A program made the translations under genes and the position numbers. 64,000 nucleotides of DNA from Eledone cirrhosa (Eukaryota): NCBI GenBank assembly GCA_964016885.1, contig OZ024743.1, positions 122,636,001-122,700,000 of the forward strand. Reading direction: 5' to 3'. The notes below the pieces were generated by a model. That model had not been told where the DNA came from. It worked only from the letters and a program-made list of their open reading frames with translations, and did not search any database. Positions 1,364-7,897 of the stretch are shown here, in pieces. Position 1 is the stretch's first letter. Every line of letters begins with the position of its first letter.

Positions 1364-1544
1364 TGTTTCTACTGTAGGCACAAGGCCAGCAAATTACCCA
1401 GTGCATTACTGGTACTTTATTTTATCGACCCCGTAAGGATGAAAGGCAAAGTCAACCTCGGCGGGATTTGAACTCAGATCGTAAAGGGACGTAACTATGG
1501 TGGAAAGCATGGCGTCCGACTCTCTACCGATACTGCCAATCCAA
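1364..1544 (-). mobile_element. tRNA-derived SINE (family A) with 16-bp TSD
   Basis: Minus strand has an A box (TGGCAGTATCGG) and B box (GAGTTCAAATCCC). TSD CTTCCAGATAAATAAC at 1348-1363 and 1545-1560. Many other copies in the window. Confidence 0.9.

Positions 1545-1817: not shown

Positions 1818-1850
<33 letters not shown>
1725..1850. repeat. (TA)n microsatellite interrupted by a short SINE 3' fragment (1770-1818)
   Basis: Directly visible. It forms the left flank of the 310-bp array. Confidence 0.9.
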
Positions 1851-1853
<3 letters not shown>

Positions 1854-1988
1854 TGGAATAAATGCTCTGAAATAGCGATATATATGTGAATATAGACATA
1901 GAATATTCGAAAATATTCTGTATGTTTATAATAAACATTTTGAAGACCTAATCGCTATAGAATAGAATACGTCACGTATTACAATTAG

Positions 1989-2077
1989 ATTCTCGATAAA
2001 AGCAAGGGAAGTAATCTACGCGTTTCATTCTCGTTAGAAATCATCAGGACTACATATCCAGTGCTTTTATCGAGAAT
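1989..2077 (-). ncRNA. Type I hammerhead ribozyme, left-arm copy (also 2299-2387, 2609-2697)
   Basis: Exact reverse complement of the motif at 2967-3055. Confidence 0.85.
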
Positions 2078-2966
2078 GACACAGCTAGAGACTTATAGAA
2101 TACTTAGCTGTGTACAGGAACTGGTTTGAAAGAGCGGTTGCCGGTCCGGCAGAAATTAGAAATTGGAATAAATGCTCTGAAATAGCGATATATATGTGAA
2201 TATAGACATAGAATATTCGAAAATATTCTGTATGTTTATAATAAACATTTTGAAGACCTAATCGCTATAGAATAGAATACGTCACGTATTACAATTAGAT
2301 TCTCGATAAAAGCAAGGGAAGTAATCTACGCGTTTCATTCTCGTTAGAAATCATCAGGACTACATATCCAGTGCTTTTATCGAGAATGACACAGCTAGAG
2401 ACTTATAGAATACTTAGCTGTGTACAGGAACTGGTTTGAAAGAGCGGTTGCCGGTCCGGCAGAAATTAGAAATTGGAATAAATGCTCTGAAATAGCGATA
2501 TATATGTGAATATAGACATAGAATATTCGAAAATATTCTGTATGTTTATAATAAACATTTTGAAGACCTAATCGCTATAGAATAGAATACGTCACGTATT
2601 ACAATTAGATTCTCGATAAAAGCAAGGGAAGTAATCTACGCGTTTCATTCTCGTTAGAAATCATCAGGACTACATATCCAGTGCTTTTATCGAGAATGAC
2701 ACAGCTAGAGACTTATAGAATACTTAGCTGTGTACAGGAACTGGTTTGAAAGAGCGGTTGCCGGTCCGGCAGAAATTAGAAATTGGAATAAATGCTCTGA
2801 AATAGCGATATATATGTGAATATAGACATAGAATATTCGAAAATATTCTGTATGTTTATAATAAACATTTTGAAGACCTAATCGCTATAGAATAGAATAC
2901 GTCACGTATTACAATTAGATTCTCGATAAAAGCAAGGGAAGTAATCTATAAGTCTCTAGCTGTGTC

Positions 2967-3055
2967 ATTCTCGATAAAAGCACTGGATATGTAGTCCTGA
3001 TGATTTCTAACGAGAATGAAACGCGTAGATTACTTCCCTTGCTTTTATCGAGAAT
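2967..3055 (+). ncRNA. Type I hammerhead ribozyme, first of 15 plus-strand copies (every 310 bp to 7307-7395)
   Basis: Stem I GUAGUC/GAUUAC; core CUGAUGA (2997-3003); stem II UUCU-AACG-AGAA with a U.U base; GAAA (3018-3021); palindromic minimal stem III ACGCGU; GUA cleavage triplet (3025-3027). Outer 16-bp helix AUUCUCGAUAAAAGCA/UGCUUUUAUCGAGAAU. Confidence 0.88.
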
Positions 3056-6000
3056 CTAATTGTAATACGTGACGTATTCTATTCTATAGCGATTAGGTCT
3101 TCAAAATGTTTATTATAAACATACAGAATATTTTCGAATATTCTATGTCTATATTCACATATATATCGCTATTTCAGAGCATTTATTCCAATTTCTAATT
3201 TCTGCCGGACCGGCAACCGCTCTTTCAAACCAGTTCCTGTACACAGCTAAGTATTCTATAAGTCTCTAGCTGTGTCATTCTCGATAAAAGCACTGGATAT
3301 GTAGTCCTGATGATTTCTAACGAGAATGAAACGCGTAGATTACTTCCCTTGCTTTTATCGAGAATCTAATTGTAATACGTGACGTATTCTATTCTATAGC
3401 GATTAGGTCTTCAAAATGTTTATTATAAACATACAGAATATTTTCGAATATTCTATGTCTATATTCACATATATATCGCTATTTCAGAGCATTTATTCCA
3501 ATTTCTAATTTCTGCCGGACCGGCAACCGCTCTTTCAAACCAGTTCCTGTACACAGCTAAGTATTCTATAAGTCTCTAGCTGTGTCATTCTCGATAAAAG
3601 CACTGGATATGTAGTCCTGATGATTTCTAACGAGAATGAAACGCGTAGATTACTTCCCTTGCTTTTATCGAGAATCTAATTGTAATACGTGACGTATTCT
3701 ATTCTATAGCGATTAGGTCTTCAAAATGTTTATTATAAACATACAGAATATTTTCGAATATTCTATGTCTATATTCACATATATATCGCTATTTCAGAGC
3801 ATTTATTCCAATTTCTAATTTCTGCCGGACCGGCAACCGCTCTTTCAAACCAGTTCCTGTACACAGCTAAGTATTCTATAAGTCTCTAGCTGTGTCATTC
3901 TCGATAAAAGCACTGGATATGTAGTCCTGATGATTTCTAACGAGAATGAAACGCGTAGATTACTTCCCTTGCTTTTATCGAGAATCTAATTGTAATACGT
4001 GACGTATTCTATTCTATAGCGATTAGGTCTTCAAAATGTTTATTATAAACATACAGAATATTTTCGAATATTCTATGTCTATATTCACATATATATCGCT
4101 ATTTCAGAGCATTTATTCCAATTTCTAATTTCTGCCGGACCGGCAACCGCTCTTTCAAACCAGTTCCTGTACACAGCTAAGTATTCTATAAGTCTCTAGC
4201 TGTGTCATTCTCGATAAAAGCACTGGATATGTAGTCCTGATGATTTCTAACGAGAATGAAACGCGTAGATTACTTCCCTTGCTTTTATCGAGAATCTAAT
4301 TGTAATACGTGACGTATTCTATTCTATAGCGATTAGGTCTTCAAAATGTTTATTATAAACATACAGAATATTTTCGAATATTCTATGTCTATATTCACAT
4401 ATATATCGCTATTTCAGAGCATTTATTCCAATTTCTAATTTCTGCCGGACCGGCAACCGCTCTTTCAAACCAGTTCCTGTACACAGCTAAGTATTCTATA
4501 AGTCTCTAGCTGTGTCATTCTCGATAAAAGCACTGGATATGTAGTCCTGATGATTTCTAACGAGAATGAAACGCGTAGATTACTTCCCTTGCTTTTATCG
4601 AGAATCTAATTGTAATACGTGACGTATTCTATTCTATAGCGATTAGGTCTTCAAAATGTTTATTATAAACATACAGAATATTTTCGAATATTCTATGTCT
4701 ATATTCACATATATATCGCTATTTCAGAGCATTTATTCCAATTTCTAATTTCTGCCGGACCGGCAACCGCTCTTTCAAACCAGTTCCTGTACACAGCTAA
4801 GTATTCTATAAGTCTCTAGCTGTGTCATTCTCGATAAAAGCACTGGATATGTAGTCCTGATGATTTCTAACGAGAATGAAACGCGTAGATTACTTCCCTT
4901 GCTTTTATCGAGAATCTAATTGTAATACGTGACGTATTCTATTCTATAGCGATTAGGTCTTCAAAATGTTTATTATAAACATACAGAATATTTTCGAATA
5001 TTCTATGTCTATATTCACATATATATCGCTATTTCAGAGCATTTATTCCAATTTCTAATTTCTGCCGGACCGGCAACCGCTCTTTCAAACCAGTTCCTGT
5101 ACACAGCTAAGTATTCTATAAGTCTCTAGCTGTGTCATTCTCGATAAAAGCACTGGATATGTAGTCCTGATGATTTCTAACGAGAATGAAACGCGTAGAT
5201 TACTTCCCTTGCTTTTATCGAGAATCTAATTGTAATACGTGACGTATTCTATTCTATAGCGATTAGGTCTTCAAAATGTTTATTATAAACATACAGAATA
5301 TTTTCGAATATTCTATGTCTATATTCACATATATATCGCTATTTCAGAGCATTTATTCCAATTTCTAATTTCTGCCGGACCGGCAACCGCTCTTTCAAAC
5401 CAGTTCCTGTACACAGCTAAGTATTCTATAAGTCTCTAGCTGTGTCATTCTCGATAAAAGCACTGGATATGTAGTCCTGATGATTTCTAACGAGAATGAA
5501 ACGCGTAGATTACTTCCCTTGCTTTTATCGAGAATCTAATTGTAATACGTGACGTATTCTATTCTATAGCGATTAGGTCTTCAAAATGTTTATTATAAAC
5601 ATACAGAATATTTTCGAATATTCTATGTCTATATTCACATATATATCGCTATTTCAGAGCATTTATTCCAATTTCTAATTTCTGCCGGACCGGCAACCGC
5701 TCTTTCAAACCAGTTCCTGTACACAGCTAAGTATTCTATAAGTCTCTAGCTGTGTCATTCTCGATAAAAGCACTGGATATGTAGTCCTGATGATTTCTAA
5801 CGAGAATGAAACGCGTAGATTACTTCCCTTGCTTTTATCGAGAATCTAATTGTAATACGTGACGTATTCTATTCTATAGCGATTAGGTCTTCAAAATGTT
5901 TATTATAAACATACAGAATATTTTCGAATATTCTATGTCTATATTCACATATATATCGCTATTTCAGAGCATTTATTCCAATTTCTAATTTCTGCCGGAC

Positions 6001-7491
6001 CGGCAACCGCTCTTTCAAACCAGTTCCTGTACACAGCTAAGTATTCTATAAGTCTCTAGCTGTGTCATTCTCGATAAAAGCACTGGATATGTAGTCCTGA
6101 TGATTTCTAACGAGAATGAAACGCGTAGATTACTTCCCTTGCTTTTATCGAGAATCTAATTGTAATACGTGACGTATTCTATTCTATAGCGATTAGGTCT
6201 TCAAAATGTTTATTATAAACATACAGAATATTTTCGAATATTCTATGTCTATATTCACATATATATCGCTATTTCAGAGCATTTATTCCAATTTCTAATT
6301 TCTGCCGGACCGGCAACCGCTCTTTCAAACCAGTTCCTGTACACAGCTAAGTATTCTATAAGTCTCTAGCTGTGTCATTCTCGATAAAAGCACTGGATAT
6401 GTAGTCCTGATGATTTCTAACGAGAATGAAACGCGTAGATTACTTCCCTTGCTTTTATCGAGAATCTAATTGTAATACGTGACGTATTCTATTCTATAGC
6501 GATTAGGTCTTCAAAATGTTTATTATAAACATACAGAATATTTTCGAATATTCTATGTCTATATTCACATATATATCGCTATTTCAGAGCATTTATTCCA
6601 ATTTCTAATTTCTGCCGGACCGGCAACCGCTCTTTCAAACCAGTTCCTGTACACAGCTAAGTATTCTATAAGTCTCTAGCTGTGTCATTCTCGATAAAAG
6701 CACTGGATATGTAGTCCTGATGATTTCTAACGAGAATGAAACGCGTAGATTACTTCCCTTGCTTTTATCGAGAATCTAATTGTAATACGTGACGTATTCT
6801 ATTCTATAGCGATTAGGTCTTCAAAATGTTTATTATAAACATACAGAATATTTTCGAATATTCTATGTCTATATTCACATATATATCGCTATTTCAGAGC
6901 ATTTATTCCAATTTCTAATTTCTGCCGGACCGGCAACCGCTCTTTCAAACCAGTTCCTGTACACAGCTAAGTATTCTATAAGTCTCTAGCTGTGTCATTC
7001 TCGATAAAAGCACTGGATATGTAGTCCTGATGATTTCTAACGAGAATGAAACGCGTAGATTACTTCCCTTGCTTTTATCGAGAATCTAATTGTAATACGT
7101 GACGTATTCTATTCTATAGCGATTAGGTCTTCAAAATGTTTATTATAAACATACAGAATATTTTCGAATATTCTATGTCTATATTCACATATATATCGCT
7201 ATTTCAGAGCATTTATTCCAATTTCTAATTTCTGCCGGACCGGCAACCGCTCTTTCAAACCAGTTCCTGTACACAGCTAAGTATTCTATAAGTCTCTAGC
7301 TGTGTCATTCTCGATAAAAGCACTGGATATGTAGTCCTGATGATTTCTAACGAGAATGAAACGCGTAGATTACTTCCCTTGCTTTTATCGAGAATCTAAT
7401 TGTAATACGTGACGTATTCTATTCTATAGCGATTAGGTCTTCAAAATGTTTATTATAAACATACAGAATATTTTCGAATATTCTATGTCTA

Positions 7492-7495
<4 letters not shown>

Positions 7496-7536
<41 letters not shown>
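7496..7536. repeat. (TA)n microsatellite
   Basis: Directly visible. It separates two ribozyme-bearing elements. Confidence 0.95.
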
Positions 7537-7538
<2 letters not shown>

Positions 7539-7897
7539 CAATATATTAACAAATGGAAACTATATTTATAAAACCATATTTATTTCATTATACATATTTC
7601 AAGGACACCAAAGCAAATTATGGTGCGCTTTCATCAGATAAAATATAATATAGATCAGTTTTATAAACAAATATTGACATACCCTTAAAGAATGCAACCA
7701 TGTCGGTTGGAAGCTGCCGGATAGTGGGGTTACTAATTTTATTATTGGTCTATTATGCAAATTAGTGCCGGAAAGGTTTAAATCCCATACATTTGTTAAT
7801 ATATTGTGTTTTTACTCCAAAAATTTGTTGAGTGCTCTATATCAGTTATAAAAATATTTGCTTGTTGTATCCCAACAAATTAAATATAACTTCTACA
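7537..7897 (-). mobile_element. Short non-coding hammerhead-bearing element (Penelope pLTR/retrozyme-like) between (TA)n tracts
   Basis: Contains the hammerhead at 7582-7644 and an 18-bp inverted repeat (7538-7555/7790-7807). (TA)n on both sides. Confidence 0.7.
7582..7644 (-). ncRNA. Type I hammerhead ribozyme
   Basis: Minus strand reads AUUUUAU-CUGAUGA-AAGCGCACCA-loop-UGGUGUCCUU-GAAA-UAUGUA-UA^AUGAAAU. Stems I, II and III can all form. Confidence 0.82.

What the first reader, a model, noticed from the sequence alone, without database searches (positions are those of the whole stretch)
2935..2960. Inversion breakpoint coincides with the predicted ribozyme cleavage site
Seen: the left arm stops at …GGGAAGTAATCTA, so on the minus strand it begins (TA)GATTAC, the sequence just 3' of GUA^. 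The cleavage position maps between 2946 and 2947, inside the 4-nt microhomology TCTA (2945-2948) that joins it to the right arm. Inference: the left arm is a cDNA that ran off the 5' end of a self-cleaved RNA. That would be a genomic record of in vivo cleavage and RNA-mediated mobilisation rather than satellite slippage.
Basis: partly seen in the sequence, partly recalled or inferred. Interest (0 to 1): 0.88.

Follow-up and report, generated by a model that had tools for sequence, protein, structure and literature searches.

The report
Retrozyme insertion primed from both ends
The seam of this back-to-back repeat does sit on the predicted RNA self-cutting site, but the seams of its sister insertions fall all over the repeat unit, so the match is likely chance; the insertions instead suggest that a Penelope-type enzyme likely copied one small, probably circular, RNA round and round from both ends of a DNA break.

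Summary
The inference fails its own test. In 97 head-to-head junctions of this 310-bp family, 3 of 194 arm starts lie at the cut (2.5 expected). Genome-wide, 7 arms stop there, against 6 at a control position and 4.4-5.4 expected. Arms cross about 1,069 intact cut sites. RNA-mediated mobilisation is well supported. All 92 classifiable insertions (of 95) have one outer end at unit position ~139 and the other at ~165, in (TA)n. Junctions are 170 head-to-head to 1 tail-to-tail. 25 of 97 loci carry variants fixed in both arms, and single-unit T>C changes outnumber A>G 24:3 in both arm types. Best reading: an animal non-LTR retrozyme mobilised by a Penelope-like RT-endonuclease; both break ends prime cDNA on one monomer, probably a circle, and the cDNAs join by microhomology. 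Two autonomous Penelope-like families here show the same end rule; the true partner was not found. This scan reached a similar model earlier on other copies (e1-8668780, e1-9563992).

The parts
1819..1849 (.). (TA)n target microsatellite, left flank
1850..2948 (-). Left (antisense) arm, 3.5 units of 310 bp, unit positions 309 to 167; outer end is the long 'B' end (tail present)
2016..2637 (-). Three intact predicted cut sites crossed by the left arm (2016^2017, 2326^2327, 2636^2637)
2939..2948 (.). Junction homology: 9-of-10 imperfect inverted repeat of the unit (u222-231 against u309-8), containing the exact 4-nt microhomology TCTA 2945-2948
2946..2947 (-). Predicted hammerhead cut position of the truncated fourth minus-strand unit (the finding)
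2945..7495 (+). Right (sense) arm, 14.7 units, unit positions 228 to 128, with 15 intact ribozymes; outer end is the short 'A' end
2991..3033 (+). First type I hammerhead of the right arm: stem I 2991-2996/3028-3033, core CUGAUGA 2997-3003, stem II 3004-3017 with U-U at its base, GAAA 3018-3021, 2-bp stem III with palindromic loop, cut 3027^3028
   Evidence: HH9 model, E=0.46, below gathering score; covariation
3167..3192 (+). One copy of the 26-nt 'tail' (u140-165) between the two fixed outer-end sites; its core motif is kept in subfamilies 72-99% identical
7496..7546 (.). (TA)n target microsatellite, right flank

Best explanation
This is one insertion of a young 310-bp hammerhead retrozyme, made of two oppositely oriented tandem arms joined head to head inside a (TA)n tract, likely built by a Penelope-like RT-endonuclease that primed cDNA from both ends of a break on one monomer RNA that is probably circular, and the junction's overlap with the predicted cut site is likely chance. 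Steps: (1) inferred: array transcripts self-cleave to monomers that are ligated into circles; (2) inferred: the enzyme cuts both strands of a (TA)n tract (shown: 1 to 8 matching T/A bases sit at the outer ends); (3) shown: one arm always ends near unit position 139 and the other near 165; inferred: these are two RT start sites, one per DNA end; (4) shown: arms run 87 to over 5,000 nt through intact cut sites and stop at scattered positions; inferred: rolling-circle synthesis; (5) shown: junctions are enriched in microhomology; inferred: the two cDNA 3' ends anneal and are filled in. Here they met at the unit's 9-of-10 inverted repeat, which happens to include the cut.
For: No junction hotspot: 3 of 194 arm starts at u308-1 against 2.5 expected; 1 of 97 junctions has the cut inside its microhomology against a mean of 1.69 per position; scan statistic P=0.43-0.94; genome-wide 7 (the window included) against 6 at control position u67 and 4.4-5.4 expected, P=0.16-0.30. 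About 1,069 passages through intact cut sites. End rule: 92 of 95 untruncated insertions have one A and one B end, 0 are AA or BB, 3 are unclassifiable; 16 of 20 diverged-subfamily loci resolved, all AB; all 5 further cut-site insertions fetched are AB. Orientation: 170 head-to-head against 1 tail-to-tail with the same anchor. Microhomology mean 2.06 against 0.75 null in 80 junctions without inserted bases. One template per insertion: 25 of 97 loci have variants fixed in the units of both arms, 15 of 23 such variants are private to one locus, and none is fixed in one arm and absent from the other where both arms could show it. Both arms look like first-strand RT products: single-unit T>C 24 against A>G 3 in element sense (p=0.0003), 11:2 in A arms and 12:1 in B arms; 50 singletons lie where a mirror position exists and are not mirrored. 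Arm lengths are unrelated (A>B in 42 of 92; rho -0.03). Ribozyme covariation: 7 of 11 pairs change on both sides, including the 3-8 pair C-G to U-A. Two autonomous Penelope-like families in this genome also have one short and one long end in head-to-head insertions: 10 of 12 and 3 of 4 resolved, none discordant. In vitro, a Penelope-like protein cleaves and extends both strands and starts at two adjacent internal sites (PMC11167929).
Against: No RNA data: cleavage, circularity and expression are untested. The autonomous partner was not found; neither autonomous family examined resembles the unit. Fixed private variants could also come from linear multimers of an already homogeneous source array, or from repeated end-to-end jumps on one linear monomer. 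L138 carries a 7-nt duplication once in each arm at mirror positions, and L052 is mosaic (2 of 6 left, 7 of 7 right); these need fold-back, conversion or a template switch. One junction (u52/u212) occurs twice among 97. A post hoc bump of arm starts at u11-30 (21 against 12.5, nominal p=0.014) would fit run-off followed by trimming, although it does not survive the scan statistic. Two near-cut junctions (L093, L130) both carry a CC insertion. The 9-of-10 homology is neutral, since most of it lies on the side a run-off cDNA would keep. At least one array has a single arm (L250). The covariation counts come from related sequences with a structure taken from one of them, which favours the structure.
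Confidence: 0.7

Rival explanations
1. One reading: this left arm ran off the 5'-OH end of a self-cleaved linear multimer and was then joined, so the junction records cleavage in vivo.
For: The cut lies inside the microhomology, and a run-off 3' end could anneal over 7 of 8 nt with the other cDNA. 7 arms genome-wide stop within 2 nt of the cut; the 95% upper limit leaves room for up to about 9 true events among roughly 700-850 arms. Nominal bump at u11-30. An unchecked note reports recurring cut-site starts in another genome (e1-9508044).
Against: No excess over control or expectation. Only 5 arm starts in u301-10 against 12.5 expected. This arm crossed three intact sites first. In the anole element, ribozyme cleavage was not needed for insertion in vitro and no RNA-seq reads began at the cut (PMC11167929).
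Confidence: 0.12
2. One cDNA folds back on itself at a microhomology (self-priming) and copies itself to make the second arm; the second fixed end is made by endonuclease resolution. Related to the self-priming idea in PMC3846280 and the resolution idea for the tail in PMC8557442.
For: Microhomology-rich head-to-head junctions; mirrored duplication in L138; mosaic L052. It explains shared variants in both arms without a circle.
Against: Neither end type is always the longer arm, loop sizes are uniform (KS p=0.96), singleton changes are not mirrored, and the T>C bias has the same polarity in both arm types.
Confidence: 0.12
3. Same double priming, but on linear templates: uncleaved multimeric transcripts of a homogeneous source array, or one linear monomer with repeated template jumps.
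For: Minimal stem III and U-U at the base of stem II predict weak cleavage as a monomer (PMC7229834 passages). Uncleaved RNA was the dominant substrate in vitro.
Against: A new variant can become fixed in every unit only through a monomer bottleneck, and 15 of 23 fixed variants are private to one locus. Shared mosaic patterns between loci were not seen. Template jumps would be expected to leave stops or scars at the cut; the only changes near it are inherited 1-nt insertions at u3-5 in 4 loci.
Confidence: 0.2
4. DNA-level satellite behaviour (slippage, unequal exchange, inversion) or an assembly fold-back artefact.
For: No read spanning this junction was seen.
Against: An inversion within an array gives both junction types, yet they are 170 to 1. 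Fixed A/B ends in (TA)n, 96 distinct junctions among 97, different flanks on each side, and a sense-polarised mutation bias.
Confidence: 0.02

Closest known systems
Animal non-LTR retrozymes (PMC7229834, passages read; bioRxiv 10.64898/2026.07.22.740005, abstract to discussion read)
   Same: About 300-bp, low-GC, non-coding tandem unit with a type I hammerhead; thousands of copies; circular intermediates and Penelope-like mobilisation proposed there.
   Different: The passages read do not describe head-to-head two-armed insertions, a one-short-one-long end rule or (TA)n targeting ('inverted' has 0 occurrences in PMC7229834). The 2026 preprint discusses local amplification by unequal crossover, which these data do not favour. 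Circles were shown there and are only inferred here.
Endonuclease-bearing Penelope-like elements (PMC8557442 and PMC3846280, passages; PMC11167929, abstract and main text)
   Same: Partial tandems, an inverted 5'-truncated copy head to head, a tail at only one end, microsatellite or AT-rich targets, a hammerhead upstream of two RT start sites, both DNA strands extended in vitro.
   Different: No ORF; tail 26 nt rather than 30-40; up to about 16 units per arm; no shared sequence found with the two autonomous families examined.
L1 twin priming (recalled, no call)
   Same: Two cDNAs primed from the two target strands and joined head to head by microhomology.
   Different: L1 uses a poly(A) 3' end plus a random internal site on a linear RNA, with non-overlapping segments. 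Here both starts are fixed, 26 nt apart, and both arms copy the same unit many times.
R2 elements with a 5' HDV-like ribozyme (recalled; mentioned in a passage of PMC4209133)
   Different: Here the 5' junctions are not tied to the cut.

Membership tests
Type I hammerhead ribozyme | Core CUGANGA...GAAA...NUH with stems I-III | tested here: met
   Rfam HH9 alignment E=0.46, below gathering score; no Rfam hit at gathering score
Type I hammerhead ribozyme | Compensatory changes in stems and the 3-8 pair | tested here: met
   15 sequences, 94.4% of cells paired, 7 of 11 pairs with changes on both sides; slid controls 17-39%; sequences are related
Type I hammerhead ribozyme | Self-cleavage at GUA^ | not testable with these tools
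   needs in vitro transcription of monomer and dimer
Animal non-LTR retrozyme | Non-coding 150-450-bp low-GC tandem unit with a hammerhead in each unit | tested here: met
   310 bp, about 35% GC, 15 + 3 intact ribozymes in this locus
Animal non-LTR retrozyme | Dispersed, high copy number | tested here: met
   4,204 exact core matches; 1,374 head-to-head matches with the shared tail motif
Animal non-LTR retrozyme | Expressed as linear and circular monomers | not testable with these tools
   no RNA holder listed; only indirect evidence from fixed variants
Penelope-like insertion footprint | Partial tandems with an inverted 5'-truncated copy, head to head | tested here: met
   170 to 1; 9 of the first 10 arrays listed are inverted
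Penelope-like insertion footprint | Tail at only one end (two start sites) | tested here: met
   92 of 95, 0 discordant
Penelope-like insertion footprint | Microsatellite or AT-rich target | tested here: met
   TA-rich flanks printed for the census loci
Penelope-like element (autonomous) | RT plus GIY-YIG ORF | tested here: not met
   arms consist of the 310-bp unit only
Non-autonomous derivative of a named Penelope-like family | pLTR or tail sequence shared with an autonomous partner | tested here: inconclusive
   no similarity to two families (30 loci each); other families not searched
Ribozyme-defined 5' junction (R2-like) | 5' junctions enriched at the cut | tested here: not met

The most novel reading that the evidence does not exclude
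These arrays are a genome-wide record of the Penelope transposition mechanism: a dimeric RT-endonuclease holds one RNA circle, primes from both ends of a (TA)n break at two non-equivalent sites, rolls round the circle twice over and joins the two cDNAs by microhomology. This would explain the inverted copy, the one-sided tail and the tandems of Penelope-like elements in a single scheme, and give population-level evidence that retrozyme circles are transposition templates.
Probability: 0.55. Interest if true: 0.75.

Novelty: new member of a known kind. Interest (0 to 1): 0.5.

Why it matters
The specific claim, a genomic scar of ribozyme cleavage, does not hold, which matters because this scan keeps flagging such single coincidences; about 1.7% of junctions will show one by chance. 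The family-level pattern bears on an open question: how Penelope-like elements make their inverted, tailed, tandem insertions, and whether retrozyme circles are real templates. A 310-nt, very young, non-coding family with hundreds of near-identical insertions gives sharp predictions (two starts at u139 and u165, one per DNA end; one template molecule for both arms) that an in vitro system like that of PMC11167929 could test.

Tried and rejected
DNA search of the own genome with the unit returned nothing, because common words are skipped; patterns were used instead. Rfam at gathering score: no hit. Sequencing runs: no RNA holder listed. Laying four runs on 2720-3026 gave one 340-nt contig in each of two runs, neither spanning the junction, and no reads from two Hi-C runs; the joints listed arise from laying a monomer on an inverted stretch, so this is no test. 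Partner search: two autonomous Penelope-like families were found through ORFs in fetched flanks, and neither resembles the unit; Pfam gave only a weak RVT_1 match for one fragment, so the clade names are not established. A-to-I editing of an antisense template as the source of T>C was rejected: neighbour bases match background. General imperfect homology beyond the microhomology is not enriched (1.24 and 1.43 against 1.35 of 5). Rows left out of the census statistics: the window itself, and a second junction at the edge of L057. L106 and L126 were left out of end counts because the fetched stretch cuts them.

Full report
Observation. The window holds a 310-bp unit as an antisense arm at 1850-2948 (3.5 copies) and a sense arm at 2945-7495 (14.7 copies), with (TA)n on both sides. 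Unit positions (u) count from the first base after the predicted cut. The left arm starts at u309, 2 nt before the cut, and the right arm at u228; they share TCTA at 2945-2948. The shared stretch is part of a 9-of-10 imperfect inverted repeat, u222-231 against u309-8. No side of 80 census junctions (160 sides) matches as far.

The ribozyme. Each unit carries a type I hammerhead with a 6-bp stem I, a stem II with U-U at its base and a 2-bp stem III with a palindromic loop. Rfam gives no hit at gathering score and HH9 at E=0.46. Across 15 sequences from subfamilies 72-100% identical, 7 of 11 pairs change on both sides, including the tertiary 3-8 pair. The sequences are related and the structure came from one of them, so this is support and not proof. 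Cleavage itself is untested.

The window is G000:C4:122636001-122700000 in a 3.0-Gb genome with 4,204 exact core matches. Three anchor patterns were designed to catch head-to-head junctions wherever the arms start. All 97 distinct places listed for C1 and for C2 up to 187.4 Mb were fetched and mapped; scaling suggests 350-420 junctions in this subfamily. The window and one extra junction at the edge of L057 were left out. Arm starts at u308-1 number 3 of 194 against 2.5 expected. One of 97 junctions has the cut inside its microhomology, against a mean of 1.69 for any position. Ten-bin chi-square gives p=0.14, and no window of 5-30 nt is a hotspot (P=0.43-0.94). A genome-wide pattern for arms that stop within 2 nt of the cut gave 7, the window included; the same design at u67 gave 6, two of which look like the same locus on two contigs. 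Expected from the census: 4.4-5.4, P=0.16-0.30. Arms pass about 1,069 intact cut sites. Against this reading: u11-30 holds 21 starts against 12.5 (post hoc, nominal p=0.014), and two near-cut junctions carry CC insertions. There is also a cold zone at u174-203 (P=0.009). Conclusion: the coincidence is what chance gives; true run-offs are at most about 1-2% of arms.

What the census shows instead. Outer ends fall in two clusters, A (u127-139, mode 139) and B (u160-172, mode 165), next to TA-rich flanks. Of 95 untruncated insertions, 92 have one A and one B end, none has two alike, two touch assembly gaps and one ends elsewhere. The rule holds in 16 of 20 loci of diverged subfamilies, with 4 unresolved, and in the five other cut-site insertions fetched. 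With one anchor, head-to-head junctions number 170 and tail-to-tail 1, which excludes simple inversion. Microhomology averages 2.06 nt against 0.75 in 80 junctions; 17 have inserted bases. Arm lengths are unrelated and loop sizes uniform. In 25 of 97 loci a variant is fixed in the units of both arms; 15 of 23 such variants are private; none is fixed in only one arm where both could show it. Among 89 single-unit substitutions T>C outnumbers A>G 24:3 in element sense (p=0.0003), in both A and B arms, and 50 singletons with an available mirror position are not mirrored. I read T>C as RT inserting G opposite U (inference). Exceptions: a mirrored 7-nt duplication in L138, a mosaic in L052, one repeated junction and a one-armed array (L250).

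Autonomous elements. Two ORF-bearing families were found through flanks: one with 784-aa frames in 3.5-kb tandems and one with frames up to about 1,290 aa. I class them as Penelope-like from recalled RT and GIY-YIG motifs and from their tandem and inverted layout; Pfam gave only a weak RVT_1 match. In head-to-head pairs picked from the hit lists, 10 of 12 and 3 of 4 were resolved, each with one short and one long end, 60 and about 80 nt apart. Neither shares sequence with the 310-bp unit, so the partner is unidentified.

Mechanism. Most likely a Penelope-like enzyme cuts both strands of (TA)n; each 3' end primes on the same monomer RNA, one at A and one at B; both cDNAs roll through the unit several times and stop at scattered places; their 3' ends join by microhomology. 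The ribozyme acts earlier, making the monomer; its likely trace is the homogeneity of the arrays and not the junction. The end rule, orientation, microhomology, variant patterns and junction spread are shown. Double-strand cutting, the circle, the dimer and the identity of the enzyme are inferred.

Literature. PMC11167929 (parts 1-2 of 4 read: abstract, main text, start of methods): both strands cleaved and extended, two adjacent internal RT starts equal to the tail, predicted dimer, ribozyme cleavage dispensable in vitro, no RNA-seq reads at the cut. PMC8557442 (passages): inverted 5'-truncated copy, tail often at one end only, (TA)n targets, mechanism undefined. PMC3846280 (passages): head-to-head structures read as self-priming on an antisense template. 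PMC4209133 (passages): circles proposed as templates for more-than-unit copies. PMC7229834 (passages): animal retrozyme circles; Penelope-like elements as candidate movers. bioRxiv 10.64898/2026.07.22.740005 (parts 1-3 of 5): retrozymes as non-autonomous Penelope-like sequences. Seven searches found no paper stating the one-A-one-B, one-template, two-cDNA model. No supplements were read; Fig. S9 of PMC7229834 and Figs S1-S2 of PMC11167929 may bear on this, and most subscription papers are outside the library.

Earlier notes. My reading was fixed before the look-ups. Notes on other copies of this family reach a similar model (e1-8668780, e1-9563992); they are unchecked and not independent evidence. 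A note on another genome reports recurring cut-site starts (e1-9508044), untested here, so the negative result is for this family only.

Verdict. Observation confirmed; cleavage-scar interpretation not supported; RNA-mediated mobilisation supported. New member of a known kind, with an unusually clean mechanistic record. Interest 0.5.

Noticed in passing
window 31672-35516: A second, unrelated array with a 593-595-bp unit, also two opposed arms between (TA)n tracts, junction near 34676-34739 with a 20-nt duplication. Ribozyme and sense strand not established here.
   Followed up: partly
unit positions u20, u259, u276 (L065, L070, L076, L085, L102, L103, L129, L133, L138): The same A>G variants are fixed in several loci on different backgrounds and lie in predicted helices; they may be A-to-I edits of the template RNA fixed by retrotransposition. 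Untested.
   Followed up: no
L103 u310; L131, L133, L134, L138 u284 and u3-5: Fixed variants inside the ribozyme fall on tolerant positions (GUA to GUU, N7, a stem I insertion), while single-unit changes also hit core positions. Too few for a test.
   Followed up: partly
L093 and L130 junctions: Both near-cut junctions with inserted bases carry CC; could be non-templated addition at a template end, or chance.
   Followed up: no
unit positions u174-203: Cold zone for junctions over the G+C-rich hairpin region (5 of 194 in 30 nt, scan P=0.009).
   Followed up: no
L138 and L052: A 7-nt duplication at mirror positions in both arms, and a mosaic array; signs of occasional fold-back, conversion or template switch.
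   Followed up: partly
L230-L241, L248 and L242-L246: Two very young autonomous Penelope-like families with intact long frames, (TA)n targets, head-to-head pairs and long tails of about 60 and 80 nt.
   Followed up: partly
L153:5128-5255: A small head-to-head insertion of a third hammerhead family in a TA tract, with a stem II similar to that of the young subfamily.
   Followed up: no
window 36508-36973 and 31062-31630: Further short perfect or near-perfect inverted repeats next to TA tracts (208-nt arms with a 50-nt spacer; 96-127-nt arms), probably other elements of the same insertion type.
   Followed up: no
runs X1-X20: 20 runs from 17 studies, under many different organism labels, hold 63-93% of the stretch's words; the two laid show a single 340-nt contig. 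Cause (relatives, carry-over or other) not examined.
   Followed up: no
window 1399-1478: A SINE-like stretch that from memory resembles octopus SINEs; no call tested this.
   Followed up: no
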